64,000 bases of DNA from a virus (taxonomy: Duplodnaviria > Heunggongvirae > Uroviricota > Caudoviricetes), in IMG/VR virus record IMGVR_UViG_2713896908_000007, one strand, 5' to 3'. Under the pieces are notes generated by a model. That model was not told the DNA's origin. It did no database searches and saw only the letters and a program-made list of their open reading frames with translations. Below, in pieces: positions 4,672 through 62,740 of this stretch. A program made the position numbers and the translations under genes. The stretch's first letter is position 1. Every line of letters starts with the position of its first letter.

Positions 4672-4835
4672 CACTGATCCTTCGAAGCTGTTTTAAATAT
4701 CGGCCATACCAATGTTACAGCCACTGCCACCAACGCCCCGTCCGATAAAACTGACAGGATTGTGCTGGTGAAATCCACCAGCACGGACAGCAAGAGAAAA
4801 CCAATGGCGATTGCGATACGTGCCTTGCTTGCCAT
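4671..4835 (-). CDS. 54-aa hydrophobic membrane peptide
   Basis: MASKARIAIAIGFLLLSVLVDFTSTILSVLSDGALVAVAVTLVWPIFKTASKDQ; ATG overlaps the TerB-like stop (TAATG). Confidence 0.35.
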   Translation of the reverse strand: MASKARIAIAIGFLLLSVLVDFTSTILSVLSDGALVAVAVTLVWPIFKTASKDQ

Positions 4836-5269
4836 TACAGATAATCTTCCACACGAAGACCTAAACGACGGCCTACTTCTTCCAGTACTTTGTGTTCTGC
4901 TGGCTCGATTTCACCGTCCGCTTCTGCAATCGTCAGCATGTTAACGAATACTTCTTCCGCTTCTTTTGGGTCGTTTTTGATATCTTCAATTTCGCGAAGG
5001 ATATTCATGCGACCAACACGGAAGCCAGCTTCCAGTTGCTCGGTAAAGCGGGTAATTGTTGCGGTAATTTCGTTACCAAAATGACTAAGACGCGGATTAG
5101 AGCGGATAAGCTGATCAAGTTTCGCTGTTTCTTCTTTTTTGATTTCACCATCAGCGGCAGACACCAACAAACAGCCACCGATAATGGCCTCCATCAGATC
5201 GCGATTCTCAACTTTTTTCAGCTCTACTTTTGCAGAAGCGACTTTCTTGCCGAACAATTTACCGAACAT
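4835..5269 (-). CDS. TerB-like (tellurite-resistance domain) protein
   Basis: 144 aa with paired acidic DGE motifs (AADGEIKKEE, AEADGEIEPAEH) typical of the TerB fold; first gene of a coupled operon. Confidence 0.55.
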   Translation of the reverse strand: MFGKLFGKKVASAKVELKKVENRDLMEAIIGGCLLVSAADGEIKKEETAKLDQLIRSNPRLSHFGNEITATITRFTEQLEAGFRVGRMNILREIEDIKNDPKEAEEVFVNMLTIAEADGEIEPAEHKVLEEVGRRLGLRVEDYL

Positions 5270-5531
5270 TGGTTATCCCTCAATAAAAGTGACATATTTA
5301 TTAGATTGCGGTGCCGGGTGCCTCCCGGTGACGTTAACCAGTTAACAATTAACGCCGGAATGTTTAATCATCAAGGAGGATTGTTTTAACTGTTCCGCGT
5401 GCGCTTAGCCGAATTCACCGCAATGGTAAGAGCACTTGGCTGGCTGGGCGGCGATGACGCCTGTACGCATTTGGTGATCCGGTTCTGCTTCCGGCATTCG
5501 CTTAATTAGCCAAATACTCTTAACGTTGCGC

Positions 5532-5618
5532 TGGTGGAGAGTAATGGAATCGAACCATCATCGCTTGCGCAATGGGACGGTTTTCAAGACCGCTTGAGCG
5601 CCATACTCCCTACTCTCC
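5532..5618 (-). tRNA. tRNA-Ser (anticodon UGA), type II with long variable arm
   Basis: 87 nt; anticodon loop CTTGAAA; variable arm ATTGC-GCAA-GCGAT hairpin; T-loop TTCGATT; encoded CCA. Confidence 0.7.
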
Positions 5619-5859
5619 AATGATTGTGGTGGTCGGTGCTGATCTCCGACTGCGCCTCTTTTTTTCATAGCCCATAAGGCCGGTCAGTGCGCTTGATGAC
5701 TGAGGCATCGATATTTACTACGCCGCCTCGTTGCCATAGGGCGGACTTGCGCGCCAGCAACGCGCATTCACCACAACGGAAAGAGCATTCACGTCTCGCA
5801 TCGCGGGAAAAAGCCCACGGTAGAGAGTCGAACTCTACAAATGCTCTTACCTGTTGTGC

Positions 5860-5992
5860 TGGTGCCGGTTAACGGATTCGAACCGCTGACCTCTGGCCTA
5901 ACATCGAATCGTTGTCATTTGACCAGCAAGGCTGTCTACCGAAGTAGAAACGATGCTTTGGCTCTCGTGCTCTCCCACTGAGCTAAACCGGC
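5860..5992 (-). tRNA. atypical 133-nt tRNA-like gene: tRNA 5' and 3' portions separated by about 57 nt of inserted sequence
   Basis: 5' GCCGGTT-TA-GCTC-AGTGGGA-GAGC (acceptor and D arm); 3' AGCGG-TTCGAAT-CCGTT-AACCGGC-A-CCA; acceptor halves pair; no canonical anticodon arm found. Confidence 0.35.
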
Positions 5993-6758: not shown

Positions 6759-9700
6759 ATAGCAATAACGTCATGAGCTACACCACGAGTGTTCCCCTTA
6801 CAAGACACAGAACGTCTGGCAAAAAGAGGTTCCACTCTGAAGCCACTGTCTTGGTAAAGCTCCCTGATGTTTGGCGCACCACTATTAGTAATGAGGATCT
6901 TTGCACCTCGGCGATGAGCATCCATTAGCAGAGATACCAGGCGTTTTTGCTCTTCAAACTTAAAGTCATGACCGGAATAGTTTGTAAACCCCTCTGTATT
7001 GGGGAGCGGTTCATACGGAGGATCGCAAAAGATGACATCTCCTTCTCCGGCAGCTTCAATCACCGCTGAAAAATCACCACATACAAACTCAGAACGCCCT
7101 TCAGCACCAAGGAAGGCTTCCATCTCCTGTAATGGGAAATACGGAGTTTTATACTTCCCATAACCAACATTAAACTCACCGGCCTGGTTGTAACGCGTCA
7201 ATCCGTTAAAACAATGTCGGTTCAGGAACAAAAACGCTGCTGCACGATGTAAATCATCATAGGCTTGTTTGTTAAACGCATTCCGTACTGCCAGGTATCC
7301 TTCCTGTGTGTTGTAGTCCTGGAAAAACCGATGCGCCAGAGTGATAAGTGAATGACCCTCACGTTGCAGAGTCCTGTAAAAGTTAATCAGGTCAGCATTC
7401 ACATCATTTAGCAGATTTTCTTGATATCCGGCATTTATGAAGACAGCTCCGCCACCAACGAAAGGCTCGATCAGGCGCTTTCCGTCAGGTAAATGCCTAA
7501 AGATTTGTTCAAGAACACCAAATTTTCCGCCGACCCATTTAAATATGGGACGGTCAAATTCTGCCGTTAGCTTAACTCTCCGTTCTGTTGCTTCATGATT
7601 TTTTGCCTGCTGATATGCAGCCTTAATAATCCGCTCACCAATCCATCGCATTACTGGTATCGCCATGCTATTGCCGATCGCTTTGTAACGCGGTCCGTCA
7701 GCTGCAAGCATCGCGGCCTCTTCTTCGCTTAAATCTGGATAGTGATTGCGAAGGTATGCCAGTTCATCTGAAGTAACTTTTTTACGCTTTTCCGTCGGGA
7801 TCAACGTATGCCCATCAGGAAAACCTTGCAGTCTTTCACATTCGACAGGGGTAAGACGGCGGACAGCTACTGCTGCGTTTCCTACGTCATAGCAAACGGC
7901 TGTTGTATTTTTGGCCATTAAAGATGGTGAAGTATTCTTAGTTGCAGCATGTTGTGTACCGCTCATACGCTCAGGAAAAGCCAATGTAACAAGATGCTCA
8001 TGGCTTTCTTGCTCACGTGCCCGCAATGTACCATGCCCTTCTGACCAAAAACCTGCTCCTGTGCTGCTAAAAACTGCAAGGTCAGTGGCATCTTTAAAGT
8101 CTCTCGCCTTTACTGTCGATGCGGTTTCATCGCCAATATATTCCCCAAATGCCGCCATCCTGAAAGCGTTTACGGCTTTCGTCGATTTCATACCGGGGGT
8201 AATGTCAGCGTGTAGGCATGGATTTAGGCTTTCGCCACTGATTGCAGCGCCATTTGCAATAATGGCGGAAGCGATTTCCTTCTTTTTTCGGCTCGGCGCA
8301 ATATTCCGGCGCACGCCTTCGAACTCAAAAAGTACCGTTGCGGGATCGAGGTCTGTTCGAGCACTTGCGACAACAAACACGCGTCGGCGTCGTTGTGCCA
8401 CTCCGAAGTATTGGGCATCAAGGATTCTCCAGGCCACCTTTCGCTGCGGTCCATAAATACAACCACACTGCGGCCACTTTGGAGCATGGCAACCGGTTTT
8501 GCCATCCCACCGCCAGAACGCGTTACTTTTTCCTGATTCAGGTCGATCACCTGGTTCAAATGGCGCATCTTCTCCAGCCAATCCGGCAAGGAAACATCCG
8601 AAGGCGTTATCTGCCGATGACAAGACTCCTGGGACATTTTCCCAGACGATAACGGCTGGTTTGAGAAATGACTCAGCCCGTTTGTCGTCAATTGCATTTG
8701 CAAGCTCCACATACTTTAAAGTTAGCGCGCCACGCTCATCATCAAGCCCACCACGTAATCCCGCGATACTGAATGCCTGACAGTTATGGACCACCGCACC
8801 ATTGAGAATATAGGAATGATCACCTTCGACTTCTATGTTGTATACAGTATCTAGGCCTACCGATTTAAACTCTTTGACTGTTCGTAAAAGCATTCCATGA
8901 GCCAATCTTGATTTACGTGACAATTTCTGCGGGCAGATTGTTACCTGATAATAATTCCGTTGATTTACCACGCGATCCTCGATCACTTTTTTGGGCTCAA
9001 CTTCAATAAAGCTGACCGAAGAAACATAACCACAAGTCTGTGACACCCCCGCAACGCCCCAAGCAAGCGCAGGACTAACACTATTAATTCTAAATCCCGC
9101 TTTACCACTTGGTGTCCCATCAGTATCAAGATAGCCTTGTAAAAACACATGACGCAATGGATGCGACATCACCCATGCAGGGATACGCTTAGCATGGCTT
9201 AACTCGCCAAAATGTTCATTAAGCCAATTGGCATAACACGTATCATTCAAGGTTACTTTGATGCTCCCTCGGATTTCTCTTGCCACGGAAAATATGTTTT
9301 CTGGTATGCGACAATGAAACTTTCTCAATTTCTGGCAATTTATGCCAAAAACAACCGCCTTCTTAGATTTACCTCTCCATCTCCTAATATATCCATCGCC
9401 AACATAAGCGCCCGCAAGATACATAGCCTGTTCTTCAGACAAGAACCGAGAACAAATATCTGGAGATGCAATATTGAAATTAGTTAGAGCGCACCATTGA
9501 TATCCTGGCATATCACATGCTGCTCGCCATTCCGGTTCAGACAACAACTCTCTCTTAAAATATGTGCCATTTTTCCGGGTGTTTTGGGCTTTCCACCGAA
9601 CAGCCAGGAAGGGATGGTCATTGGTTGTTCTTATACCTAAAGGCTGCCCAACGGCATTAAGTAACCCCGTATTAGCTATTTTTGAACCAACTCTTTTTAC

Positions 9701-10036
9701 TTGTTGTAACCGCCCGAGATGACTGACTACGTAATCGCCAGGGCAAACATCTTCTATTGGTTTATAACCATTTTTACAAAGAACCATATGCCCCGCGGTA
9801 AAACATGGTGTTCCCCCGACGAGCACGTCAGGGGATTCGATTTCCCCAGCCAGGACTTTTTTGGCAAGTTTAGTCATGTCGTCAAGGTTGGCGACATGGG
9901 GCCAGCGGTGCGCAAGAACGGCCGATGGAAAAGACTCGATTTCAGCAAACCACGCCGGACGCATACCCAACGGTTCCCAGGCAATACTCGCGGCTTCAAT
10001 TCCACTGCAAACAGATCCATAGCACAGCTCTTTCAC
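6749..10036 (-). CDS. dmt: bifunctional DNA methyltransferase (N-terminal C5-cytosine MTase, C-terminal Dam-like N6-adenine MTase) with an intein
   Basis: C5 motifs ([30 protein letters not shown]) then Dam motifs ([22 protein letters not shown]); GTG start overlaps the hrdC stop. Confidence 0.85.
8783..9805 (-). other. intein (341 aa) with LAGLIDADG homing-endonuclease motifs, inserted before the catalytic Cys of C5-MTase motif IV
   Basis: GGTP|CFTAGHMVL...TNDHPF...[10 protein letters not shown]...[10 protein letters not shown]...[13 protein letters not shown]|CQAFSIAG; excision restores [12 protein letters not shown]. Confidence 0.8.
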
Positions 10037-13105: not shown

Positions 13106-13498
13106 ATGTCTGATAAAGTAACAGTAAAGCAAACTATCAACAAAGCGACTTCAATCTACAAAATTGAGCAAATCACTGTTGGCAAGCCAGGATCTGAACA
13201 ATACCGTCATGCTTTCGAGCTTGCCGATCAGCTTGGTTTAAAACATCCAGATTGTATCGAGCATGTATTTCCGACCTATGCTGATGAGCAATGTACTCAT
13301 GTTCTTACCGAAGAGGATTTTTTCAGCACTGAAGAACGAGAAGGCGTTGATCGCTGCATTGGTGTGATTTGTTCTTCGGTAAGTGATGAGTTATTCCCTA
13401 ATGTGCCTGAATATGGTGGTATTGGATACCAATTCCTGTACGAGGGCGATGAGCTTAAATGCTATGAACATGGTCTTCTCATCGAAAGCGTAGAATAA
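13106..13498 (+). CDS. hypothetical acidic protein upstream of the replicon origin
   Basis: 130-aa ORF with RBS, followed by a terminator hairpin; no domain recognised. Confidence 0.5.
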   Translation: MSDKVTVKQTINKATSIYKIEQITVGKPGSEQYRHAFELADQLGLKHPDCIEHVFPTYADEQCTHVLTEEDFFSTEEREGVDRCIGVICSSVSDELFPNVPEYGGIGYQFLYEGDELKCYEHGLLIESVE

Positions 13499-13512
13499 TA
13501 CGGCTTCCTTCC

Positions 13513-13540
13513 AACCGGCTTTGTTGGCCGGTTTATTCAA
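13513..13540 (+). terminator. rho-independent terminator
   Basis: AACCGGC / GCCGGTT hairpin followed by a T-rich tract. Confidence 0.5.
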
Positions 13541-13541
13541 C

Positions 13542-13620
13542 TTATCCACAGCATAGATCCAATAAACAGATCCAAAAGAGAACCCTAGAAGATCCAAATA
13601 AGATCCCGGATCGCTGCAGG
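13542..13620. promoter_or_regulatory. oriR-like origin elements: consensus DnaA box plus a cluster of five GATC sites
   Basis: TTATCCACA at about 13542-13550; repeated AGATCC heptamers within about 60 bp; immediately upstream of the iterons. Confidence 0.6.
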
Positions 13621-13650
13621 CCGCGCCATGTCTGGCCTGAAACGTGATCA

Positions 13651-13758
13651 ACATTGACTATATGCGATTTTATGTTGACTGTACACGATTTATTGTTGAC
13701 TACACGCGATTTTATGTTGACTATACGCGATATAAACATTGACTGTACGCGATTTTAA
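13651..13758 (+). repeat. iteron array: five direct repeats of about 21 bp (incC-like)
   Basis: Consensus TGTTGACTRTACRCGATTTTA at 21-22 bp spacing directly upstream of repA. Confidence 0.8.
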
Positions 13759-13833
13759 AGCCTGAATATTCACAGCTGTTGATAACAGCCATCCAAATTG
13801 ACGTCAGGCCGCGCCACACATGGAGAAACCACG

Positions 13834-14718
13834 ATGCCGGAAGAAAGTAAAGGCTTCCTTAGCGTTGAAGAAGTTGCAGGAAATACAGGAGAAATCCACA
13901 GCCTGAAACCCAATAACAACAGCACTATACAACCCATCGCTTTGTTGCGCTTAGGTGTGTTTGTGCCAACCTTAAAATCTACCAATGTGGCACTACGTCG
14001 CGGATCGTCAGTTACTACAAACACAACGAACGCAACCGAAGAACTATCAAGCCTCAAAATTGTTGAGCAGGAAGGCTATGAGGGAATTGAAATTCATGGT
14101 CCACGCCTGGATATGGATACTGATTTTAAGGTGTGGGTGGGCATAACCTCCGCGTTGTTTGACTATGCACCTGATGATGACGGTATAATTACCCTGCCAT
14201 TCTCCGAGTTTGCCGATCGATGCGGCTATCCACGTAAGCGCCTTTCAAAGGCGTTCCGTAAAAGTATTGATGACTCTCTGACACGCATTCAGCAGACAGT
14301 TGTCAAATTCCGCTTCCCGGCGGCAAAAGGTCATCTCAATAACATTAACGTCAACTTGTTGGCATATAGCAGCCTGAATACCGAGCTTGATGTTATCGAG
14401 ATCCAGCCGCAGAAACAGCTATCTGAACTTTACTATGTTGACTATAAGCGAATCCTGAAGCTGAAGATGCTGGATAAGCTCGGGCGCAAAGAGACGGCCA
14501 AGGTACTGTATACATTCTTTGAGGCTCTACCTGCCAACCCAGCACCTGTCAGCATTGAGCGCCTTAGAGCAAGGCTTAACCTCAAATCATCCGTTAGCGT
14601 GCAAAATAGCGTTATCAGAAAAGCCATGAAAGATTTGGAAGCTATTGAATATCTTAAATTTTCAGAGATAAAAAACGGCAGGAAAATCGGCTTCCAGATC
14701 CATAAGCGCAATCCATAA
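13834..14718 (+). CDS. repA: iteron-binding plasmid replication initiator RepA
   Basis: Shares PIALLRLGVFVP and GPRLDMDTDFK blocks with remembered P1 RepA but diverges elsewhere; ATG at 13834 with GGAG RBS. Confidence 0.8.
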   Translation: MPEESKGFLSVEEVAGNTGEIHSLKPNNNSTIQPIALLRLGVFVPTLKSTNVALRRGSSVTTNTTNATEELSSLKIVEQEGYEGIEIHGPRLDMDTDFKVWVGITSALFDYAPDDDGIITLPFSEFADRCGYPRKRLSKAFRKSIDDSLTRIQQTVVKFRFPAAKGHLNNINVNLLAYSSLNTELDVIEIQPQKQLSELYYVDYKRILKLKMLDKLGRKETAKVLYTFFEALPANPAPVSIERLRARLNLKSSVSVQNSVIRKAMKDLEAIEYLKFSEIKNGRKIGFQIHKRNP

Positions 14719-14720
14719 TA

Positions 14721-14980
14721 TTGACTATATGCGATAGCGAGAAGTTGACTATAGGCGACATTCGTTGACGCTGGTGGATTTTTGCTGGCGTCAATATTCT
14801 GCAAGTCGCTATTGAGATGGCTTTTAGGGTCATTTCATCGCGTATAGTCAACGTTTCTCCCGACAATATCTTACATAGTCGATCTTTGGTGGAGTTAAAT
14901 CGACTACAGTCAACTTTTGACTGTGGTCATATCGCGCATAGTCAACTATTCACATTAACCTTCGCGCATAGTCAACATTT
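14721..14980. repeat. second iteron cluster downstream of repA (incA-like), both orientations
   Basis: Eight or nine TTGACTATAYGCGA-type copies, direct and inverted, between the repA stop and the next gene. Confidence 0.7.
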
Positions 14981-15010
14981 GCGCGGTTCTCATCAAGCAG
15001 TGGTATTGAT

Positions 15011-15820
15011 ATGCAAGAAGAGAAACAACACTACCTCTACATTCTGGTGCCGGAGAACGGAGATACTTTTAAAATCGGCATTTCATGTGGTCCATTGGCA
15101 CGGTTTAAAGGGCTACAAGTGAGTCCCGATATTGCGCTTTCACGAATCTATCGTGGTACGCGTTTGGCAATGGTTAATCTTGAGCGGGCTTTACACGCAA
15201 CCTTTTTCCCCTGGAATGCGCCGTGGGAGAAAAGCGCCGGTGGCGGGTATACTGAATGGTTTACACGAGAGTGTCTTGATAAGGTTTTGGCTCATATCGA
15301 ATATCTAAATGATATGTGGGGAGGGATTCTCGAGCTCATTAAGTCGAATGATTTACTTCAGCGTCCAGTAGATGCTGCTCGCTCTTTCGAAAAAGAACTG
15401 GATGTTACTTCTATCGTGACTTTCAAAGATGACGCAGGAATGAGGGACGTGGCTTATGTCTCCATATCTGGCTATGACCCGGACGCGATCCGCGCTCAAT
15501 GTGAATTGCTGAAAGCAATGTTTATGCTTCGGACTAAATATCCCTGGGAGACAGGGCGGGTGTGCTTCCCTATGGAAGAGTTAACCGCCACCATTGATTC
15601 CCAGCTTTACCACGATAATCCAGAGAAGTTTTTTAGCCTTTTAACCGGTAATGGGCTTAACTGTGTGTCCGGGCTGGGGCGAAGTAGAATCCAACATGCC
15701 TCGCTCTTCGGTCCCTTCTTTTACGATCGACACGGGTACTTTGAGGCTGAACTTCCGGCGCTTACGCGTGCTATAGATACTATCGATTTCGAACGATTAT
15801 TCGCTGCTCTTAGCAAATAA
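15011..15820 (+). CDS. T5orf172 (GIY-YIG-like) domain protein
   Basis: N-terminal YLYILVPENGDTFKIGIS ... GGGYTEWF resembles the T5orf172/MUG113 domain; own terminator; sits between the incA-like iterons and parA. Confidence 0.6.
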   Translation: MQEEKQHYLYILVPENGDTFKIGISCGPLARFKGLQVSPDIALSRIYRGTRLAMVNLERALHATFFPWNAPWEKSAGGGYTEWFTRECLDKVLAHIEYLNDMWGGILELIKSNDLLQRPVDAARSFEKELDVTSIVTFKDDAGMRDVAYVSISGYDPDAIRAQCELLKAMFMLRTKYPWETGRVCFPMEELTATIDSQLYHDNPEKFFSLLTGNGLNCVSGLGRSRIQHASLFGPFFYDRHGYFEAELPALTRAIDTIDFERLFAALSK

Positions 15821-15827
15821 CACTGAT

Positions 15828-15848
15828 GCCCCTGAACGGGGCTTTTTT
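15828..15848 (+). terminator. rho-independent terminator
   Basis: GCCCC-TGAAC-GGGGC hairpin followed by TTTTTT. Confidence 0.8.
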
Positions 15849-15988
15849 GTGCCCTCCTTGCAACGCTCAATCGTGCAAAATGAACCAAACATGCAGAGAA
15901 TGCTATGTACAAGCATCTGCGCATACATTATTATTTTATGTAGCATTTTTAATTAAATTCAAAAATACAGCATAAAGGATGACTTTCG

Positions 15989-17185
15989 ATGAGTGATTCC
16001 AGCCAGCTTCACAAGGTTGCTCAAAGAGCAAACAGAATGCTCAATGTTCTGACTGAACAAGTACAGTTGCAAAAGGATGAGCTACACGCGAACGAGTTTT
16101 ACCAGGTCTATGCGAAAGCGGCACTGGCAAAATTGCCTCTACTGACTCGAGCGAACGTTGACTATGCCGTAAGTGAAATGGAAGAAAAGGGTTATGTTTT
16201 CGATAAACGCCCTGCTGGCTCTTCAATGAAATATGCGATGTCAATTCAGAACATCATTGATATATATGAACATCGCGGAGTGCCAAAATACCGGGATCGC
16301 TACAGCGAAGCGTATGTTATTTTCATCTCCAATCTTAAAGGCGGTGTGTCAAAAACTGTATCGACGGTTTCTCTGGCGCATGCAATGCGTGCCCACCCTC
16401 ATCTTCTGATGGAAGATTTAAGGATTCTGGTTATTGACCTTGATCCGCAATCTTCAGCAACGATGTTTTTAAGCCATAAACACTCTATTGGTATCGTAAA
16501 CGCAACATCTGCACAGGCTATGTTGCAGAATGTAAGCCGTGAAGAGCTGTTAGAGGAGTTTATTGTTCCTTCTGTTGTACCTGGGGTTGACGTTATGCCT
16601 GCGTCGATTGACGATGCCTTTATTGCATCCGATTGGAGAGAGCTGTGCAATGAGCATCTACCGGGTCAGAACATCCATGCTGTCCTGAAAGAAAATGTGA
16701 TTGATAAGCTGAAGAGCGATTATGATTTTATCCTCGTTGATAGTGGTCCTCACCTTGACGCCTTCCTGAAAAATGCTTTGGCCTCGGCCAATATACTGTT
16801 TACACCTCTGCCACCAGCAACGGTCGATTTCCACTCATCGCTTAAATACGTTGCCCGCCTTCCTGAGTTGGTGAAACTCATTTCGGATGAAGGCTGCGAG
16901 TGCCAGCTTGCGACTAACATTGGTTTTATGTCCAAGTTGAGTAACAAGGCAGACCATAAGTATTGCCATAGCCTGGCGAAAGAAGTGTTCGGTGGGGATA
17001 TGCTCGATGTCGTCCTACCTCGCCTTGATGGTTTCGAACGCTGCGGCGAGTCCTTTGACACTGTTATTTCTGCTAATCCGGCAACGTATGTTGGTAGTGC
17101 TGACGCACTGAAGAACGCGCGCATCGCCGCTGAAGATTTTGCAAAAGCAGTTTTTGACCGTATTGAATTTATCAGATCTAACTAA
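15989..17185 (+). CDS. parA: partition ATPase ParA (P1 type Ia)
   Basis: 398 aa; deviant Walker A KGGVSKT; N-terminal HTH extension; sequence matches remembered P1 ParA. Confidence 0.9.
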   Translation: MSDSSQLHKVAQRANRMLNVLTEQVQLQKDELHANEFYQVYAKAALAKLPLLTRANVDYAVSEMEEKGYVFDKRPAGSSMKYAMSIQNIIDIYEHRGVPKYRDRYSEAYVIFISNLKGGVSKTVSTVSLAHAMRAHPHLLMEDLRILVIDLDPQSSATMFLSHKHSIGIVNATSAQAMLQNVSREELLEEFIVPSVVPGVDVMPASIDDAFIASDWRELCNEHLPGQNIHAVLKENVIDKLKSDYDFILVDSGPHLDAFLKNALASANILFTPLPPATVDFHSSLKYVARLPELVKLISDEGCECQLATNIGFMSKLSNKADHKYCHSLAKEVFGGDMLDVVLPRLDGFERCGESFDTVISANPATYVGSADALKNARIAAEDFAKAVFDRIEFIRSN

Positions 17186-17201
17186 GGAGTAAGAAAACGC
17201 C

Positions 17202-18203
17202 ATGTCAAAGAAAAACAGACCAACAATTGGGCGAACCCTTAATCCTTCAGTATTAAGCGCATTTGATAGTTCCTCTGCCTCTGGTGATCGGGTTGAGCAG
17301 GTATTCAAGCTATCAACTGGTCGCCAGGCTACATTCATTGAGGAGGTAATCCCTCCAAACCGGGTAGAAGGCGATACCTTTGTTGATCAGCATAACAACG
17401 GACGTGATCAGGCAGCTCTTACACCAAAATCATTAAAAAGCATCAGAAGCACCATTAAGCATCAGCAATTTTACCCAGCAATAGGTGTTAGACGGGCTAC
17501 AGGAAAAATTGAAATTTTGGATGGTTCCCGGCGTCGAGCTTCTGCCATCTTAGAGAACGTAGGGTTGCGGGTTTTAGTCACGGACCAGGAGATCAGCGTC
17601 CAGGAAGCGCAAAATTTAGCGAAAGACGTTCAGACAGCATTGCAGCACAGCATTCGAGAAATAGGTCTGCGTTTGATGCGAATGAAAAATGCTGGGATGA
17701 GTCAGAAGGATATTGCAGCCAAGGAAGGGCTATCTCAGGCGAAGGTCACGCGTGCTCTCCAGGCAGCGAGTGCTCCGGAAGAATTAGTCGCCCTTTTCCC
17801 TGTGCAGTCGGAATTAACCTTTTCGGACTACAAAACGCTTTGTGCTGTTGGCGACGAAATGGGGAACAAGAATTTAGAGTTTGATCAGCTTATTCAAAAC
17901 ATATCCCCGGAAATAAACGACATCTTATCCATTGAAGAAATGGCCGAAGATGAAGTTAAAAATAAAATCCTGCGCTTGATAACAAAGGAAGCCTCACTAC
18001 TCACGGATAAAGGTTCTAAAGATAAGTCCGTAGTTACTGAATTATGGAAATTTGAGGACAAAGATCGCTTTGCAAGGAAGCGCGTGAAAGGCCGTACCTT
18101 TTCCTATGAGTTTAATCGACTCTCTAAAGAGTTACAGGAAGAACTTGACAGGATGATTGGGCATATCCTAAGAAAAAGCCTCGATAAAAAGCCGAAACCT
18201 TAA
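17202..18203 (+). CDS. parB: centromere-binding partition protein ParB
   Basis: 333 aa; ParB box GSRRRAS; follows parA with RBS; matches remembered P1 ParB. Confidence 0.9.
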   Translation: MSKKNRPTIGRTLNPSVLSAFDSSSASGDRVEQVFKLSTGRQATFIEEVIPPNRVEGDTFVDQHNNGRDQAALTPKSLKSIRSTIKHQQFYPAIGVRRATGKIEILDGSRRRASAILENVGLRVLVTDQEISVQEAQNLAKDVQTALQHSIREIGLRLMRMKNAGMSQKDIAAKEGLSQAKVTRALQAASAPEELVALFPVQSELTFSDYKTLCAVGDEMGNKNLEFDQLIQNISPEINDILSIEEMAEDEVKNKILRLITKEASLLTDKGSKDKSVVTELWKFEDKDRFARKRVKGRTFSYEFNRLSKELQEELDRMIGHILRKSLDKKPKP

Positions 18204-18204
18204 A

Positions 18205-18300
18205 CTTTCGCCATTGAAATTTCATTGGTAACATTCTGTTTTTAAAGAAAATTCATCTAAAATTTCAAGGTGAAATCGCCACGATTTCACCTTGGATTTT
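18205..18300. promoter_or_regulatory. parS-like partition site
   Basis: TCGCCA and ATTTCA(C/T) box motifs, including inverted GTGAAATCGCCACGATTTCAC, just after the parB stop. Confidence 0.7.
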
Positions 18301-18350
18301 ACCCTCCTCCCCTATCCCTACAAAAAATAAAAAAATTACTTTTCGCGAGA

Positions 18351-18377
18351 AAGTCAACAAGTGACTTTCAATAAAAT
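18351..18377 (+). promoter_or_regulatory. candidate late promoter upstream of the capsid gene
   Basis: Inverted repeat AAGTCA-ACAAG-TGACTT, then AGTGACTTTCAATA and a TAAAAT -10-like hexamer. Confidence 0.35.
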
Positions 18378-18407
18378 CTCTTCCGAAAAGGGATTCACAC
18401 AAGTGCC

Positions 18408-40816: not shown

Positions 40817-43800
40817 ATGAATGACGTTACAGTTGTTACATCGGTCACTTACCCATCACCCGAGTCGTTGGCTCTGGTGGCTGATGTGCAATACCACGAA
40901 CCATATCTGTCAGCCGCGCTAAACCGAAAATTCAGGGGAATTGTTGCCCCTGGATTTTATGCCGGTTTCTTGCCTAAGCCTGGTGGTGGGATGAACCTGT
41001 TAATCACCTCAGTGGATGGTGATAAAACTGCTGGCGCTGCGTCAGTGGATATTGGTGAATTCTACCAGGTAACTATTCAGCACCGTAAGGATATTTCTCT
41101 TGCACTTAGTGCAGGTAAGAAATATGCAATTGTGCTGAAGGGAAGATACCTCCTTGGAGAGGATACCTATCAGGTTAATACCGCGTCACATATTCATGCG
41201 GCTGAATTTATTGCCAGAATCTATACCGATTCATATCAGTTGGGAGATGGGGAGCTACTTGTTTGTACGGTAAATATCCCTGCTGGCGTATCTGCCATTA
41301 CCCAGGAGATGATTGATACATCTGAGCGTATCAACCGCACGATCGGCATTGAAATATCAGACTCTGTAACCAGCACCAGAAGTGATGTTGCGGCAAGTTC
41401 GCTGGCAGTTAAAAAAGCCTACGATCTGGCGAAAAGCAAGTATACGGCGCAGGATGCAAGCACAACGCAAAAGGGATTAGTTCAGCTCAGTAGCGAAACT
41501 AACAGCGACAGCGAAACAATGGCGGCTACCCCTAAAGCCGTTAAGTCTGTAAAAGATCTTGCTGATACTAAAGCGCCAATAGAAAGCCCGAATCTGACAG
41601 GGAAACCAGGTGCCCCGACTGCGGCCCCTGGTACAAACAGCAATCAGATCGCAAATACAGCATTTGTTCATGCCGCTATAAACGCGCTTATCAACGGCGC
41701 CCCAGGAACACTGGATACGCTGAAAGAAATTGCGGCCGCTATCAACAACGATCCGAAGTTCGGCACGACTATCAATAATGCGCTGAATCTTAAGGCTCCT
41801 TTAGCAAACCCTGCATTCACCGGAATACCTACCGCGCCTACAGCACCGCAGGGTACAAATAACACACAGATAGCAACGACTGCTTATGTTAGGGCGGCTA
41901 TTTCCGCATTGGTCGGTTCATCTCCTGAAGCTCTGGATACTCTGAATGAGTTAGCTGCGGCGCTTGGCAATGACCCGAACTTTGCGACAACCATGACCAA
42001 TGCACTGGCAGGGAAACAGCCTCTTGATGCAACCTTAACCGCGCTCGCTGCCCTTGCGACTGGTGCAAATAAACTGCCTTATTTCACCGGTAAGGATACG
42101 GTAGCGCAGACTGATTTAACGTCAGTCGGTCGCGATATTCTGGCTAAAACAAGCACACTGGCCGTTATCCAATACCTTGGTTTAAGAGAACTTGGCACAA
42201 GCGGTGAAAAGATTCCCCTGTTGAGCACGGCTAACACATGGAGTGCACGCCAGACTTTCAACGGCGGGATCACCGGGGCGCTGACAGGGAACGCCGACAC
42301 CGCTACAAGATTGCAGACGGCGAGAAAAATTAATGATGTTCTATTTGATGGTTCAAAGGATATCACTTTAACTGCCGAAAACTTAAAGCTTGAGCAAACA
42401 GTAGAATTAGCTGCTGGTGCTTTACAGAAAAAACAGAACGGCGCAGATATTCCAGATAAGGGTGCTTTCCTGAACAATATTAACGCGGTCAGTAAAACAG
42501 ATTTTGCTGCTAAGCGTGGGATGCGTTATGTGCGAGTTAACGCTCCGGCAGGTGTAACGCCCGGAAAATATTACCCTGTTGTTGTAAAACGTAACTCGGG
42601 TTCAACAAGTGAACTTGCATCAAGGGTAGTTATATCCACTAAATCTGTTGGTGGAGCAGATCCTATGAACAACTGCGAGTTCAGCGGATTTGTGATGCCT
42701 GGCGGCTGGACTGACAGAGGGCGTTATGCCTATGGAATGTTCTGGCAATATCACAACAATGAACGAGCAATTCATTCGATAATGATGAGTGCTAAGTCAG
42801 ATGATTTGCACTCTGTATTCTATGTTGATGGTGCTGCTTTCCCTGTCTTTGCATTTATTGAAGATGGCCTGTCAATATCCGCACCGGGTGCTGATCTCGT
42901 TGTTAATGATACGACCTATAAGTTTGGGGCAATAAACCCGGCGACAGAATGTGTCGCGGCTGACGTTATCCTTGATTTTAAAAGTGGGCGTGGTTTTTAT
43001 GAATCTCATTCGTTAATTGTTAACGATAACTTGTCGTGCAAAAAACTTTTCGCAACAGACGAAATTGTAGCGCGTGGTGGTAATCAGATTCGAATGATAG
43101 GCGGGGAATACGGTGCGTTATGGAGAAATGACGGCGCTAAAACTTACCTGCTGCTTACCAACAAAGGTGATGTTTATGGCGAGCATAATGCATTAAGACC
43201 GTTTGCTGTTGATAACGCAACTGGTGAACTGACTGTTGGAACCAAACTATCCGCAAGTCTGAACGGTAACGCATCGACAGCAACCAAGTTACAAAATGCG
43301 ATAAATATTAATGGCGTTAAATTTGATGGTTCCAGTGATATAAATATTAATACGTTAGTATCCCGAAACCGTGTTACAGCATTAAGTGGGAGCGCAAAGG
43401 GTACGCCAGGTATCCAAATGTATGAAGCGTACAACAATGGATATCCTTTTACTTATGGTAACGTTCTTCATCTTACTGGCGCAGCAGCAGTTGGCGAAGG
43501 AGAGTTATTTATTGGGTGGAGTGGGACCAGCGGCGCTCATGCTCCGGCATATATTCGCTCCCGACGAGATACCACAGATGCTAACTGGTCGCCGTGGGCG
43601 CAGCTTTACACGTCAGCTCATCCTCCGGCAGAGTTTTATCCAGTCGGTGCCCCAATTCCGTGGCCTTCTGATGTAGTACCTACAGGTTATGCTATTATGC
43701 AGGGGCAAACTTTTGATAAGTCCGCATACCCAAAACTTGCAGTGGCTTATCCATCTGGTGTTATCCCTGATATGCGTGGATGGACAATCAAGGGTAAACC

Positions 43801-44248
43801 CGCCAGTGGGCGTGCCGTATTGTCTCAGGAACAGGATGGCATCAAGTCGCACACCCACAGTGCCAGCGCATCAAATACTGACCTCGGTACTAAAACGACC
43901 AGCTCATTTGATTACGGGACAAAAACGGTCAGCACGTTTAACCACGGTACAAAAACGACAAACAATACAGGAGCGCATACGCATACTGTCGGTGGTCGTT
44001 ACGGTGGTGACTCCATCGGGGGTAAACAACGCGTACAGGTATCAGGAACCAACCAGGTGTCAAGCTCTGCCGGAGCACATGCCCATACTGTCGATATTGG
44101 TCAGCATAACCACACCGTAGGTATTGGTGCCCATGCGCACACTGTGGCATTGGGTGCGCACGGACATACCATCACGGTTAACGCTACTGGTAATGCGGAA
44201 AACACCGTAAAAAACATTGCATATAACTATATTGTGAGGCTTGCATGA
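40817..44248 (+). CDS. S: tail fibre protein S with C-terminal HxH repeats
   Basis: ATG at 40817 after AAGGA; repeated collar motifs; C-terminal GAHTHT/GAHAHT/GAHGHT repeats of the T4 gp37-type metal-binding tip. Confidence 0.75.
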
Positions 44249-45114
44249 TTAAGTTAATTCTTTCAGCGCCAGTACATGAAATGGCTGAAGCATTTAAGCG
44301 GGTATTCGCAAATGCAGATAATGTGGATGTTGTAGAAAAAACATTTGAAGCAATCCCGGAATTTGACTGCATGGTCAGTGCGGCAAACAGTTTCGGGCTA
44401 ATGGATGGCGGCGTTGACGCTGCCATTACTGCATTCTTTGGTACTCAGTTACAGACACGTGTTCAGAATCATATTCTTCGTGAATATCTTGGTGAGCAGC
44501 CTGTAGGCACTGCATTTGTTATTGAAACGGGGGATAACAACCATCCCTGGCTGGTACATGCGCCAACAATGCGCGTTCCGCTGACCATTGACGGAACAGA
44601 CGCTGTATATAACGCCACGTGGGCTGCTTTACTTGCCATCTTTCAGCACAATAAAAATGCAACGACAGACAGGAAAATAAAGACGGTGGTATTCCCTGCA
44701 ATGGGGGCCGGATGTGGTCAGGTGCCGTTTGAAAGTGTTGCCCGGCAGATGAAGCAGGCATGGGATAACTTTAATAAAAAAACAGAAGCAATTAACTGGG
44801 AATACGCACACTCCCGCCAGTTGGCAGTATTTAATACATGCGCGTACTGCCCGGGTACTCCTGTTTGTCGTTATGCGGATATTAAATATATTGGACTTGG
44901 CGATTACCGGACGTATTGCTTACGGTCGGGGCAGGTATGCATTAATCCTGAACATCAGGTTGATGACGTGCTGACTAATAATCGTTCTCGCCCGGGGGCG
45001 CATATGCATCAGATTAATCCGGTAAAATCCGTAGGTAATATTGCCATTGGCGCACACAGCCACGGAAGGAATATCACCATTGGTGCTCATTCCCATACCC
45101 CACATAAACAATAA
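44245..45114 (+). CDS. macro-domain protein with C-terminal fibre-tip HxH repeats
   Basis: [18 protein letters not shown] and [14 protein letters not shown] match macro-domain signatures; C-terminal [17 protein letters not shown]; ATGA overlap with S. Confidence 0.75.
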
Positions 45115-45138
45115 TTCTTTCTCTGATTAGAGGTGAAA

Positions 45139-45717
45139 ATGACTTTCAGAATGAGTGCTGAAGCACAAACCATTCGCGTATTTAATTATCTCGATGGTAC
45201 AAATGAATTTATTGGAGAAAGTGATGCCTATATTCCACCACATACAGGGCTTCCGGCAAACAGCACAGATATTGCTCCTCCTAAGATTCCAGCTGGTTTT
45301 GCCGCTATATTCGACACAACCCGAAACTTATGGAATTTAATAGAGGACCATAGAGGAAAAACTGTTTATCACACTGAAACAGGTGACGCTAAAACTATAT
45401 TTAAATTAGGCGCTTTGCCTGAGGATGTTACGTGCATTCCTCCTGATGATGAGTATCAGAAGTGGAATGGAAATCAATGGGTTACAGACGATGAGGCGAA
45501 GCATCAAGCTCAGATAACCTATGCAAACTCAAAGAAAAATGAGTTGTTAAAGCACGCAAGCGTAGAGATAGCGATCTTACAAGATGCTGTTGATTTATGT
45601 ATTGCAACAGATGAAGAGAAAGTTTTATTAAATGAATGGAAAAAATACAGAGTGCTTGTAAATAGGTTAAATGAAGATGACATCATTCAAATGAAAGTCC
45701 CTGAAATACCAGTTTGA
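45139..45717 (+). CDS. U: tail fibre assembly chaperone
   Basis: Tfa-like protein (FAAIFDTT...W, DEEKVLLNEWKKYRVLVNRL); immediately follows the fibre locus. Confidence 0.7.
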   Translation: MTFRMSAEAQTIRVFNYLDGTNEFIGESDAYIPPHTGLPANSTDIAPPKIPAGFAAIFDTTRNLWNLIEDHRGKTVYHTETGDAKTIFKLGALPEDVTCIPPDDEYQKWNGNQWVTDDEAKHQAQITYANSKKNELLKHASVEIAILQDAVDLCIATDEEKVLLNEWKKYRVLVNRLNEDDIIQMKVPEIPV

Positions 45718-45771
45718 TTTATATATTAATAAGCCACTGTTGACAGGACTGTTTTACAGTGGTTTGTTTTA

Positions 45772-46920
45772 TTATCCAAACCAATTTTCTAGAACATTTT
45801 CAAATTTATGGGTAACTTGCCACCATAAATAGTTCTCTAATACATATTTCTTTCCGTTATTTGCAATTTGTTCTAATTTTTCGGAGTGTAATGTTTCATA
45901 TATATCACTAGCTAAACTTTCTGGCAACATTGGTTCATTTATATGAAATCCTGTATGGTTATTTTTTACAAATTCAACCATTCCACCTCGAGTGCTAACT
46001 AAAACGGGTTTTCCTGCCCCCATAGCTTCTATAGCAACCATGCAGAACGGTTCTTGAAACTGAGATGGGATTACAACTAGATCGGCTATAGGATAGTAAC
46101 GGTACATATCATCTGGTTTTACCCCGCCAACAAGATGACAACGCGAACCAATAGTTCCAGCAAGTTCCCTTACTTGTTTTTGATATGCAGCTTTTTCTCC
46201 TTTATCTTTATTATTGTAGTCACCAACAACTACAAGTTCTATATTGTCACATGATTTTATCAATTTTTTAAACGCTTGTAATAGTAAAACAGTCCCTTTT
46301 TCAGGGGAGATCCTTCCCGCATAAAAGATAACTTTTTTCTCAGAGGGAATGCCTAAATCTTGTTTTGTTAGCGGGGGTAGCCCTTTATCTAGATTGTGTG
46401 GTTCTGTACCATTAGGAACTATACAAATTTCAGCGTCAGGAAGATGTTTTTCATAAAAATCCTTTAAATACTGACTTGGAACAAGCATTTTCACATTGCT
46501 ATCTAGCCCTTTCGGTGTAAAGGCATTATGCATATGCATTATCATTTTTGCGTCAGGAGCTTTCTCTCTAATTTGACGATAAAGTTTCATGCTGTTATGA
46601 ACAATAATAATGCTATCGTTTGTGATATTGAAATCTTTAGCAATGTTTAACACTCGTTGTGAATATGGAATAGGATCTATTCTGCTCCATTTTTGAAATA
46701 TCCGTTTATAAAGACGGCTAAACCCTATTCTATGGATAGAGCATCGCTCATTAACAATATCTTTTTCTGAGAAACCATCCTCTCGAATGCATGCTATACG
46801 ATTTGGTATTCTTGTTCTCTTTGCGACTTGATATATCCAAGTTTCAACAGCTGCTGCGCCACGAGGTGGTATTGAAAATATTGGTGTAACTGTAAATATT
46901 AATTTGTCAATCATGAGCAA
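45772..46920 (-). CDS. GT-B fold glycosyltransferase (GT4-like)
   Basis: 382 aa; C-terminal EPFCMVAIEAMGAGKPVL fits the GT4 E-x7-E region; AT-rich; overlaps the upstream acetyltransferase gene. Confidence 0.7.
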   Translation of the reverse strand: MLMIDKLIFTVTPIFSIPPRGAAAVETWIYQVAKRTRIPNRIACIREDGFSEKDIVNERCSIHRIGFSRLYKRIFQKWSRIDPIPYSQRVLNIAKDFNITNDSIIIVHNSMKLYRQIREKAPDAKMIMHMHNAFTPKGLDSNVKMLVPSQYLKDFYEKHLPDAEICIVPNGTEPHNLDKGLPPLTKQDLGIPSEKKVIFYAGRISPEKGTVLLLQAFKKLIKSCDNIELVVVGDYNNKDKGEKAAYQKQVRELAGTIGSRCHLVGGVKPDDMYRYYPIADLVVIPSQFQEPFCMVAIEAMGAGKPVLVSTRGGMVEFVKNNHTGFHINEPMLPESLASDIYETLHSEKLEQIANNGKKYVLENYLWWQVTHKFENVLENWFG

Positions 46921-47458: not shown

Positions 47459-47482
47459 TGTTGTTTTACTTCCATTTAAAAT

Positions 47483-47812
47483 TTAACTATCAAATGTGGC
47501 TCCTATTTCTCGCATTTTGTTAAGTATGATGTTTATTTCATTGCTACCGAGAGAAGTTTGGGCAGCTATGAAAAAAAGTATGTGCAATGACATAGATCTG
47601 TTATTTTCTTTGTTTATATATTTTCTCCACTGGCTATCGCTGCTGACCCCGGCTAGTTCTGCCATTTGATTCCCTGTATACCCAAGCGTTTCTTTGAATT
47701 GACGCAAATCTTGTGATTTGGGGGGGGTGTAGTTGTTTATTAACCTCATATTAAACCCATTATTGGTAAGCTTTCGTTGGTGTAATGGTAGCACCAATGG
47801 GGCTGCTGTCAA
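47483..47812 (-). CDS. small HTH-like protein at the head of the GT/acetyltransferase cassette
   Basis: ORF with a probable HTH (LGYTGNQMAELAGVSSDSQW); start uncertain (track TTG, or internal ATG at 47749). Confidence 0.35.
   Translation of the reverse strand: MTAAPLVLPLHQRKLTNNGFNMRLINNYTPPKSQDLRQFKETLGYTGNQMAELAGVSSDSQWRKYINKENNRSMSLHILFFIAAQTSLGSNEINIILNKMREIGATFDS

Positions 47813-61009: not shown

Positions 61010-62740
<1,731 letters not shown>

What the first reader, a model, noticed from the sequence alone, without database searches (positions are those of the whole stretch)
13542..18300. Mosaic maintenance region: non-P1 iterons and diverged RepA combined with P1-type ParA, ParB and parS
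ParA and ParB read as essentially P1 proteins and the site after parB has P1-like box motifs. RepA shares only short blocks with P1 RepA, and the iterons (TGTTGACTRTACRCGATTTTA) differ from the P1 19-mer as I recall it. The origin layout (DnaA box, GATC cluster, five iterons, repA, inverted iteron cluster) is nevertheless retained. This implies replicon swapping with likely altered incompatibility.
Basis: partly seen in the sequence, partly recalled or inferred. Interest (0 to 1): 0.4.

Follow-up and report, generated by a model that had tools for sequence, protein, structure and literature searches.

The report
Known p0111 replicon in P1-like phage-plasmid
This stretch is the plasmid-maintenance region of a P1-like phage-plasmid in which P1's own replication module is replaced by the already described "p0111" module while the P1-type partition system is kept; it is real but common and published.

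Summary
The window is 100% identical to Escherichia albertii plasmid pEA16-1_1, a P1-like phage-plasmid. ParA (397/398) and ParB (326/333) are P1 proteins, and parS keeps both P1-type box B hexamers. RepA is only 42% identical to P1 RepA, though homologous over its full length. Its iterons (core TTGACTRYRYRCGAT) are unrelated to the P1 19-mer.

The exchanged block is about 13500-15886. It begins directly after upfA, so the DnaA box and GATC cluster belong to the incoming module too. That origin half is conserved across the whole RepFIB/P1 initiator family, which is why it looks retained. The block also carries a T5orf172/GIY-YIG-like gene.

This is the "p0111" replicon type. RepA is 100% identical to RCS47 and 99.3% to pO111_2, and the block is present in about 390 PLSDB plasmids. 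Published work describes it as the alternative to IncY in P1-like phage-plasmids, with repeated switches.

Replication-based incompatibility with P1 is probably lost, but this is untested. Partition-based (incB) incompatibility should persist.

Novelty: already known. Minor extras: related replicons occur in D6-like and divergent P1-like elements, repA contains a conserved iteron-like site, and no record pairs the p0111 block directly with a P7-type parA.

The parts
13499..13541 (.). Left junction zone of the exchanged block: the end of upfA (stop codon 13496-13498), a hairpin at 13511-13527 and a 7-bp indel relative to P1
   Evidence: Sliding identity to P1 is 100% over 13275-13499, then 74-86% from about 13500. 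Alignment A1.
13542..13550 (+). DnaA box TTATCCACA (perfect consensus)
   Evidence: Aligned with the annotated P1 and P7 DnaA boxes.
13556..13649 (.). GATC (Dam site) cluster of AGATCC-type heptamers plus a GC-rich spacer; presumed origin-opening region
   Evidence: Six GATC sites at 13556, 13569, 13591, 13602, 13609 and 13646. The region is homologous to the annotated Dam sites of P1 oriR. It is 78.6% identical to P1 and 82.1% to L004.
13651..13757 (+). Five direct origin iterons (incC equivalent) with 21-22 bp spacing; core TTGACTRYRYRCGAT
   Evidence: In register with the P1 iterons they are only 39% identical.
13766..13785 (.). Two DnaA-box-like 9-mers with one mismatch each: ATATTCACA (+) and TTATCAACA (-), on the repA side of the iterons
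   Evidence: The flanking position matches P1 oriR, which is established knowledge. Function here is inferred.
13834..14718 (+). repA, a 294-aa Rep_3-type initiator of the p0111 type
   Evidence: 42% identical to P1 RepA. Pfam Rep3_C above its cut-off and Rep3_N just below it. phrog_775. 100% identical to RCS47 RepA and 99.3% to pO111_2 RepA.
14435..14456 (+). Iteron-like site inside repA (TTGACTATAAGCGAA)
   Evidence: PWM score 17. The 15-mer is identical in three repA genes; L004 repA is about 77% identical to the window at DNA level, and L010 is 84% at protein level. Function is inferred.
14718..14781 (+). Two direct iterons (14718-14739 and 14742-14763) plus a conserved degenerate element TTGACGCTGGTGGATTT (14765-14781)
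   Evidence: The degenerate element is conserved in L004 and L010.
14833..14978 (-). Four inverted iterons (14833-14854, 14895-14916, 14927-14948, 14957-14978) and one weak copy (14864-14885). Together with the direct copies this is the incA equivalent.
   Evidence: The same 2 direct + 4 inverted layout occurs in L004; L010 has 1 direct copy plus the degenerate element and 4 inverted copies.
15011..15820 (+). 269-aa protein with an N-terminal T5orf172 (GIY-YIG clan) domain; part of the exchanged block; function unknown
   Evidence: Pfam T5orf172, E = 4.4e-4, residues 8-85. phrog_2876 of unknown function, and phrog_681 endonuclease at E = 6.5e-9. Found in PLSDB only alongside the p0111 block. 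Split into two ORFs in pO111_2.
15828..15850 (+). Intrinsic-terminator-like hairpin followed by a T run, after the T5orf172 gene
15887..15991 (+). Right junction (homology to P1 resumes at 15887), then the P1-type par promoter and ParA operator
   Evidence: The promoter-like site at 15906-15934 coincides with the annotated Ppar of P1.
15989..17185 (+). parA, a type Ia partition ATPase with an N-terminal HTH
   Evidence: 397/398 identical to P1 ParA. Pfam HTH_54 + AAA_31. 57.5% identical to P7 ParA.
17202..18203 (+). parB, the centromere-binding protein
   Evidence: 326/333 identical to P1 ParB. Pfam ParB. 41.5% identical to P7 ParB.
18208..18290 (+). parS centromere: box B1 18208-18213, box A1 18219-18225, IHF site 18229-18241, box A2 18262-18268, box A3 18270-18276, box B2 18276-18281, box A4 18284-18290
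   Evidence: Alignment to the annotated P1 and P7 parS. Both box B hexamers are TCGCCA, as in P1.

Best explanation
This is the plasmid-prophage maintenance region of a P1-like phage-plasmid with two parts: a p0111-type iteron replicon and the P1-type ParA-ParB-parS partition system.

Replication, by homology with P1 oriR and RepFIB replicons (inferred):
- RepA monomers bind the five origin iterons.
- Together with DnaA at the flanking DnaA boxes, they open the adjacent Dam-methylated GATC region to start theta replication.
- RepA bound to the origin iterons represses its own gene.
- The downstream iteron cluster (2 direct + 4 inverted copies) holds copy number down by titrating RepA and pairing with the origin ('handcuffing').

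Partition works as in P1: ParB and IHF assemble on parS, and ParA segregates the copies and represses the par operon.

Relative to P1, the whole replicon cassette from the end of upfA to just upstream of Ppar (about 13500-15886) is of another lineage in the same initiator family, with co-varied RepA and iterons. Cassette exchange by recombination in the conserved flanks is the likely origin; its direction is unknown. The expected result is loss of replication-based (IncY) incompatibility with P1 while partition-based incompatibility is kept.
For: Shown here:
- The window is 100% identical to E. albertii pEA16-1_1, and 382 PLSDB records cover at least 80% of the region.
- P1 aligns at 94-100% on both flanks but not across 13637-15886.
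- Identity to P1 drops at about 13500.
- RepA is 42%, ParA 99.7% and ParB 97.9% identical to P1.
- The iterons are statistically solid and unlike P1's.
- parS boxes are P1-type.
- RepA is 100% identical to RCS47 RepA and 99.3% to pO111_2 RepA.
- RepA belongs to the RepFIB/P1 family: 45-49% identical to IncFIB initiators, with Rep3 domains.
- The same origin architecture, with lineage-specific iterons, is found in a D6-like element (L004), a divergent P1-like element (L010), another phage-gene-bearing contig (L006) and pO157 RepFIB.

Literature:
- PMC5241659: SJ46 RepA is 42% identical to P1 RepA.
- PMC9603915: repA' (p0111) plus gp57 replace repA (IncY); 24 of 55 P1-like elements are p0111.
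- PMC11165635: 132 p0111 against 94 IncY, with 17 inferred switches.
Against: - Nothing here tests function. No replication, copy-number or incompatibility experiment on the p0111 replicon was found in the papers read.
- The repA promoter was not identified by the consensus scan, so autorepression is by analogy only.
- Rep3_N scores 22.0 bits, just under its 22.4-bit cut-off.
- The direction of exchange is open. The p0111-type cassette also sits in a deeply diverged P1-like element (L010), with RepA divergence comparable to that of ParA. P1's IncY cassette could therefore be the newcomer.
Confidence: 0.9

Rival explanations
1. The region is simply a fast-diverged P1 (IncY) replicon. On this reading RepA and the iterons drifted in place, with no cassette exchange.
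For: RepA is a true homologue of P1 RepA over its full length. The origin layout is the same, and the DnaA/GATC half is still 79% identical to P1.
Against: - Identity to P1 falls abruptly from 100% to unalignable within a few dozen bases at both ends, while the flanks stay at 94-100%.
- No intermediates exist. RepA relatives are at least 99% identical in 392 plasmids; only six PLSDB records lie between 80% and 99%. The few relatives at 84-94% that were traced (L004, L010) also carry p0111-type iterons. Below that, similarity drops to 53% or less.
- P1 and P7 RepA are 100% identical to each other.
- The block carries an extra gene that P1 lacks.
Confidence: 0.02
2. The p0111 cassette was imported recently into P1-like phages from a conventional (non-phage) plasmid such as an IncFIB plasmid.
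For: RepA is annotated RepFIB/RepB family and is 45-49% identical to initiators of IncFIB plasmids. MOB-suite types the record IncHI1B.
Against: - No conventional plasmid with a close relative was found.
- The relatives above 80% identity whose context was examined (L004, L010) lie in P1-like or D6-like phage-plasmid backbones.
- The T5orf172 partner gene is found only with this cassette.
- PMC9603915 reports IncY and p0111 only in P1-like elements.
Confidence: 0.05
3. The p0111-type cassette is the older resident of the P1-like lineage, and the IncY cassette of P1 and P7 is the replacement. This shares the mechanism of the best explanation and differs only in the direction of exchange.
For: L010 is a P1-like element whose ParA and ParB are 89% and 67% identical to P1. 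It carries a p0111-type RepA (84%), the same iterons and a T5orf172 homologue (44%) at the same position. This fits long vertical co-descent of the cassette with the backbone.
Against: This rests on a single divergent contig, and no phylogeny was made here. PMC11165635 infers many switches, so the direction may differ between events.
Confidence: 0.35

Closest known systems
p0111 replicon type of P1-like phage-plasmids (pO111_2 of E. coli O111:H- 11128; phages RCS47, SJ46, JL22)
   Same: RepA is 99.3-100% identical. The whole region 13450-18400 is 97% identical at DNA level. The gene order oriR-repA-iterons-T5orf172-parA-parB-parS is the same.
   Different: Only allelic differences:
- The iteron array is 88-90% identical to RCS47.
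- The T5orf172 protein is 96% identical.
- A diverged patch covers the parA 3' end and parB 5' end.
- The T5orf172 gene is intact here but split in pO111_2.
Phage P1 plasmid replicon (oriR/incC, repA, incA; IncY)
   Same: Same genomic slot between upfA and parA. Same architecture: DnaA box, GATC cluster, five iterons at 21-22 bp spacing, repA, and a downstream iteron cluster in both orientations. RepA is homologous (42%).
   Different: - The iteron sequence is unrelated: TTGACTRYRYRCGAT against GATGTGTGCTGGAGGGAAA.
- The downstream cluster has 6-7 iterons rather than 9.
- There is an extra T5orf172 gene and a terminator.
- The block is 2.4 kb rather than 1.6 kb.
Phage P1 ParA-ParB-parS (type Ia partition; incB)
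   Same: ParA is 99.7% and ParB 97.9% identical. The par promoter and operator are the same, as are the parS box B hexamers and box A2-A4.
   Different: Seven ParB substitutions, five of them in the N-terminal 72 residues plus D164A and A299T. Box A1 is ATTTCAT, as in P7. Three changes lie in the non-specific positions of the IHF site.
RepFIB replicons of IncFIB plasmids (e.g. pO157)
   Same: Same initiator family (45-49% identity). The origin has a DnaA box and a GATC cluster that read as homologous to the window's, followed by iterons, rep and downstream iterons.
   Different: The iterons differ (ATAAGCTGTAGTCAGT-type). The initiator is longer (325 aa). The host element is a conjugative or virulence plasmid, not a phage-plasmid.

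Membership tests
Iteron-controlled theta replicons of the P1 RepA / RepFIB (Rep_3) family | Initiator with two winged-helix domains (Rep3_N + Rep3_C) homologous to P1 RepA / RepFIB RepA | tested here: met
   Rep3_C scores 27.3 bits against a 21.1 cut-off. Rep3_N scores 22.0 bits against a 22.4 cut-off, so it is marginal. 42% identity to P1 RepA over 272 aa, E = 9e-71. phrog_775 at 2.6e-134.
Iteron-controlled theta replicons of the P1 RepA / RepFIB (Rep_3) family | Array of direct repeats with about 21-22 bp spacing immediately upstream of the initiator gene | tested here: met
   Five copies at 13651-13757.
Iteron-controlled theta replicons of the P1 RepA / RepFIB (Rep_3) family | DnaA box(es) and a Dam-site cluster next to the iterons | tested here: met
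   Perfect DnaA box at 13542 and six GATC sites in 94 bp. Both are aligned to the annotated P1 features.
Iteron-controlled theta replicons of the P1 RepA / RepFIB (Rep_3) family | Second iteron cluster downstream of rep acting in copy-number control (incA type) | tested here: inconclusive
   The cluster is present at 14718-14978. Its control function cannot be tested with these tools.
Iteron-controlled theta replicons of the P1 RepA / RepFIB (Rep_3) family | Autonomous, RepA-dependent replication | not testable with these tools
   This needs a mini-replicon experiment. Indirect support: about 390 circular plasmid records carry this cassette. Whether it is their only replicon was not checked.
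IncY (P1/P7 replication incompatibility group) | P1-type 19-bp iterons (incA/incC) | tested here: not met
   No match to the P1 iteron consensus at up to 3 mismatches in 64 kb. The arrays are 39% identical in register.
IncY (P1/P7 replication incompatibility group) | RepA essentially identical to P1 RepA (P1 and P7 are 100% identical) | tested here: not met
   42% identity.
p0111 replicon type (PlasmidFinder name; reference from E. coli O111:H- 11128) | rep gene near-identical to that of the P1-like plasmid of strain 11128 and of elements the literature types as p0111 | tested here: met
   RepA is 99.3% identical to pO111_2 NC_013370.1 and 100% to RCS47. The region is 97% identical at DNA level to JL22, which PMC9603915 types as p0111. 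The PlasmidFinder reference AP010962 itself was not in the collections. That it equals pO111_2 rests on my memory.
P1-type ParABS (type Ia partition), P1 species specificity | ParA with an N-terminal HTH plus a Walker-type ATPase; ParB with the P1-type C-terminal domain | tested here: met
   HTH_54 + AAA_31, and Pfam ParB PF08775. 99.7% and 97.9% identity to P1.
P1-type ParABS (type Ia partition), P1 species specificity | parS with box A heptamers, an IHF site and box B hexamers of the P1 type (TCGCCA) | tested here: met
   Both box B hexamers are TCGCCA. P7 differs at the aligned box B positions.
GIY-YIG / T5orf172 nucleases (for the extra gene at 15011-15820) | T5orf172 domain with conserved Tyr, Arg and Glu motif residues, and demonstrated nuclease activity | tested here: inconclusive
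   The Pfam hit is marginal (21.2 bits against a 20 cut-off). The motif residues Y8/Y10, K21-I22-G23, R31, E58 and E82 are conserved in the 44%-identical homologue. The AF2 model is poor, with pLDDT 57. No fold or PDB match was found. Activity cannot be tested here.

The most novel reading that the evidence does not exclude
The T5orf172/GIY-YIG-like gene may be a working accessory of the p0111 cassette rather than a passenger.

What was observed:
- It always travels with the cassette.
- It is kept at 44% identity in a deeply diverged P1-like lineage.
- Its start directly abuts the inverted iterons.

The reading: it could be a homing-type nuclease that cuts the rival (IncY) allele during co-infection. 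Repair of the cut would then copy the p0111 cassette in by gene conversion. This would help explain the many replicon-type switches seen in P1-like phage-plasmids. Its expression might be coupled to RepA occupancy of those iterons.

Against it: the gene is split in pO111_2 and absent from the D6-like relative, so it is not needed for maintenance. No nuclease activity or target site is known.
Probability: 0.06. Interest if true: 0.55.

Novelty: already known. Interest (0 to 1): 0.15.

Why it matters
The region matters mainly as annotation. It identifies the element as a p0111-type P1-like phage-plasmid, a widespread carrier of resistance and virulence genes in Escherichia and Salmonella.

The two replicon types are already used for typing. 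What is still missing is any experiment on the p0111 replicon: iteron binding, copy control, and real compatibility with IncY P1. The anatomy given here supplies the coordinates for such tests: exact block limits, the iteron list, the conserved iteron-like site inside repA, and the P1-type parS.

It also predicts that IncY and p0111 elements would still interfere with each other through parS, and probably through phage immunity, even though their replicons differ.

Tried and rejected
1. I first placed the left junction inside oriR, at 13636, because the blastn match to P1 ended there. I rejected this after the sliding-identity profile and the comparison with L004. The match only ran on through a family-conserved origin half.
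2. The Chi octamer at 14770, inside the conserved element after repA, looked like a possible recombination hotspot. I rejected it as special because the window holds 20 Chi sites and the D6-like relative has GCTGGCGG there.
3. Structure of the T5orf172 protein. The AF2 model, built from a 3-sequence alignment, was poor (pLDDT 57). Foldseek against the PDB gave nothing at E <= 0.001. PDB sequence searches gave nothing for this protein or for RepA. PADLOC gave nothing.
4. The sigma-70 scan found no convincing repA promoter on the + strand within the iterons. Each iteron carries TTGACT (5 of 6 matches to the -35 consensus), but no good -10 follows.
5. The 12-bp exact repeat CAGGCCGCGCCA flanking the iteron array (13617 and 13805) is not conserved as a repeat in RCS47, L004 or L010. 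It is probably chance.
6. The PlasmidFinder reference accession AP010962 is not in the collections. I used pO111_2 NC_013370.1 instead.
7. Co-residence of IncY and p0111 elements in one genome could not be counted with the available search outputs.

Full report
**What is there.** The window is 100% identical over 13500-18400 to plasmid pEA16-1_1 of Escherichia albertii BIA_16-1 (NZ_CP117651.1). It is 97% identical to the P1-like phages and phage-plasmids phi456, SJ46, JL22, RCS47 and Ro157c2YLVW. A window-wide comparison with P1 shows a P1 backbone at 92-98% identity, interrupted by about ten non-P1 segments. The block at 13637-15886 is one of them.

**Check of the observation.**
- ORFs: repA 13834-14718 (294 aa, GGAG Shine-Dalgarno 7 nt upstream), a 269-aa ORF at 15011-15820, parA 15989-17185 and parB 17202-18203.
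- ParA is 397/398 and ParB 326/333 identical to P1. Against P7 they are 57.5% and 41.5%.
- RepA is 42% identical to P1 RepA over 272 residues, E = 9e-71. It is diverged but homologous throughout.
- Five direct iterons lie at 13651-13757 with 21-22 bp spacing.
- Downstream of repA there are two direct copies (14718-14763) and four inverted copies (14833-14978), plus one weak copy.
- The core TTGACTRYRYRCGAT occurs 9 times in the window at up to 1 mismatch, all within 13654-14975, against 0.2 expected.
- The P1 iteron consensus is absent at up to 3 mismatches.
- A perfect DnaA box sits at 13542, and six GATC sites lie in 13556-13649. Two one-mismatch DnaA boxes (13766 +, 13777 -) lie on the other side of the iterons.
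- parS (18208-18290) aligns box for box with the annotated P1 site. Both box B hexamers are TCGCCA, box A2-A4 are identical, and box A1 is ATTTCAT.
- The three changes in the IHF site fall in the non-specific N4 of the IHF consensus (the consensus is from my own knowledge).

**Limits of the exchanged block.** The blastn match to P1 ends at 13636 and resumes at 15887, 19 bp before the Ppar -35 hexamer. The left limit is misleading. Identity to P1 is 100% over 13275-13499 and drops to 74-86% from about 13500, directly after the upfA stop codon.

The DnaA box and GATC half of the origin is 78.6% identical to P1 but 82.1% identical to the origin of a D6-like element with a related RepA (L004). The whole oriR therefore belongs to the foreign cassette. 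That half reads as homologous even in RepFIB of pO157. It is a family trait, probably constrained by DnaA and Dam/SeqA (inference). The exchanged block is about 13500-15886 (2.4 kb), against 1.6 kb in P1.

**What it is.** RepA carries the Rep3 winged-helix domains. It is 45-49% identical to RepFIB-type initiators of IncFIB plasmids. It is thus a third branch beside P1 RepA and RepFIB. Each branch examined here keeps the same origin layout with its own iteron sequence: P1, the window, L006 (ATCTACTGTATGCTAC) and pO157.

RepA is 100% identical to RCS47 RepA. It is 99.3% identical to that of pO111_2 of E. coli O111:H- 11128, the strain that gives the 'p0111' replicon type its name. In PLSDB, 392 records encode a RepA at least 99% identical, and 391 records cover at least 80% of the block.

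**Literature.**
- SJ46 RepA was reported as 42% identical to P1 RepA (PMC5241659).
- In JL22, 'repA' (p0111) and an unknown gene gp57 replace repA (IncY)'. Of 55 P1-like elements, 31 are IncY and 24 are p0111 (PMC9603915).
- In Salmonella, 132 elements were p0111 and 94 IncY, with 17 inferred changes of type along the tree (PMC11165635).
- The finding is therefore already described. No paper I read dissects the p0111 iterons or tests incompatibility. PMC11165635 says only that the two types 'can theoretically be compatible'.

**Mechanism.** The mechanism is inferred by homology with P1 oriR. RepA binds the origin iterons and, together with DnaA, opens the methylated GATC region. RepA binding to the origin iterons represses repA. 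The downstream iterons limit copy number by titration and handcuffing. I could not identify the promoter.

Partition should work as in P1. Because RepA and iterons have co-varied, incA/incC-type incompatibility with P1 is probably lost. Because parS has P1 specificity, incB incompatibility with P1 (but not P7) should persist. Both points are predictions.

**Where the cassette comes from.** Relatives of the RepA at 84-85% identity sit in other phage-plasmids.
- L004 is a D6-like element. Its flanks are 81% identical to phage D6, and it is 99.5% identical to plasmid NZ_CP085065.1. The cassette lies between pmgB and tub, and D6 itself has an unrelated rep gene in that slot.
- L010 is a divergent P1-like contig whose ParA and ParB are 89% and 67% identical to P1. 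The cassette, together with a T5orf172 homologue, sits in the same place as here.
- No conventional plasmid with a close relative was found.
- The p0111-type cassette is thus an old resident of the P1/D6 group, and the direction of the P1-versus-p0111 exchange is open.

**The extra gene.** The 269-aa protein has a marginal T5orf172 (GIY-YIG clan) domain at residues 8-85. In PLSDB it is found only together with this cassette. In the large protein collections its only full-length relative is the L010 protein, at 44% identity; all other hits cover just the N-terminal domain. It is split into two ORFs in pO111_2 and absent from L004, so it is not required for maintenance. Structure prediction failed to inform.

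**Further observations.**
- An iteron-like 15-mer inside repA (TTGACTATAAGCGAA) is identical in three repA genes. L004 repA is about 77% identical to the window at DNA level, and L010 RepA is 84% identical at protein level. The codons on either side of the 15-mer vary.
- A chimeric query joined the 3' end of the T5orf172 gene to the 5' end of P7 parA. None of the 635 matching PLSDB records holds both parts side by side. Direct p0111 + P7-par adjacency is therefore unseen, whereas IncY occurs with both par types.
- RCS47 ParA and ParB are 99.7% and 100% identical to P1, and 57% and 42% to P7. This contradicts the statement relayed in PMC5241659 that they are P7-like.

**Verdict.** Novelty: already known. 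Interest is low.

Noticed in passing
window 15011-15820: A 269-aa T5orf172/GIY-YIG-like gene lies inside the exchanged block, directly after the inverted iterons. In PLSDB it occurs only with the p0111 cassette. Its one full-length distant homologue (44% identity) sits at the same place in a divergent P1-like contig (L010). It is split into two ORFs in pO111_2. Its function is unknown.
   Followed up: partly
window 14435-14456 (inside repA): The iteron-like 15-mer TTGACTATAAGCGAA is identical in the repA genes of the window, L004 and L010, although L004 repA is only about 77% identical to the window and the neighbouring codons vary. It may be an additional RepA-binding site.
   Followed up: partly
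window 14765-14781: The degenerate element TTGACGCTGGTGGATTT follows the two direct downstream iterons. It is conserved in L004 (one change) and L010. It is better conserved than some true iterons, and its role is unknown. It contains a Chi octamer in the window, but Chi sites are common here (20 in the window).
   Followed up: partly
L004:5700-7110 (E. coli GCA_013513435.1 contig; 99.5% identical to plasmid NZ_CP085065.1): D6-like phage-plasmids carry a p0111-related replicon (RepA 85% identical, same iterons and layout, no T5orf172 gene) between pmgB and tub. Phage D6 itself has an unrelated rep gene (25% identity) in that slot. Replicon cassettes are therefore exchanged in the D6 group too.
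   Followed up: partly
L011 (RCS47) versus L001 (P1) and L003 (P7): RCS47 ParA and ParB are 99.7% and 100% identical to P1, and only 57% and 42% to P7. PMC5241659, citing the RCS47 paper, states that they are identical to P7 and distant from P1. The sequences contradict that statement.
   Followed up: yes
window 16987-17487 and 18187-18400: Patches at 89-93% identity to both P1 and RCS47 lie within a par region that is otherwise 97-100% identical. They cover the 3' end of parA and 5' end of parB, and the parS region. They account for five N-terminal ParB substitutions and look like small recombination patches specific to the E. albertii lineage.
   Followed up: no
PLSDB, chimeric query of window 15400-15820 + L003:4739-5238: None of the 635 matching plasmid records has the p0111 cassette directly next to a P7-type parA. 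The p0111 cassette appears only with P1-type par, whereas the IncY cassette occurs with both par types.
   Followed up: partly
window 4805-5968, 8783-9802, 23791-25668, 27436-29030, 42482-43258, 43616-47879, 51575-53184, 55128-56221, 59747-61024: These are further window segments with no blastn match to P1. They probably correspond to the known variable regions of P1-like phage-plasmids. I did not examine them.
   Followed up: no
L002 / NZ_CP117651.1 record typing: The MOB-suite typing distributed with PLSDB labels this plasmid's replicon 'IncHI1B'. That does not fit the p0111/RepFIB-family RepA found here and is probably a typing artefact.
   Followed up: no
L006:5856-7047 (E. coli GCA_048104335.1, 99.8-kb contig): A different element with phage-like genes (a Peptidase_S74 protein, among others) has a RepA 50% identical to the window's. 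It has the same layout: five iterons (ATCTACTGTATGCTAC) at 21-bp spacing, rep, then downstream iterons. The element was not identified.
   Followed up: no
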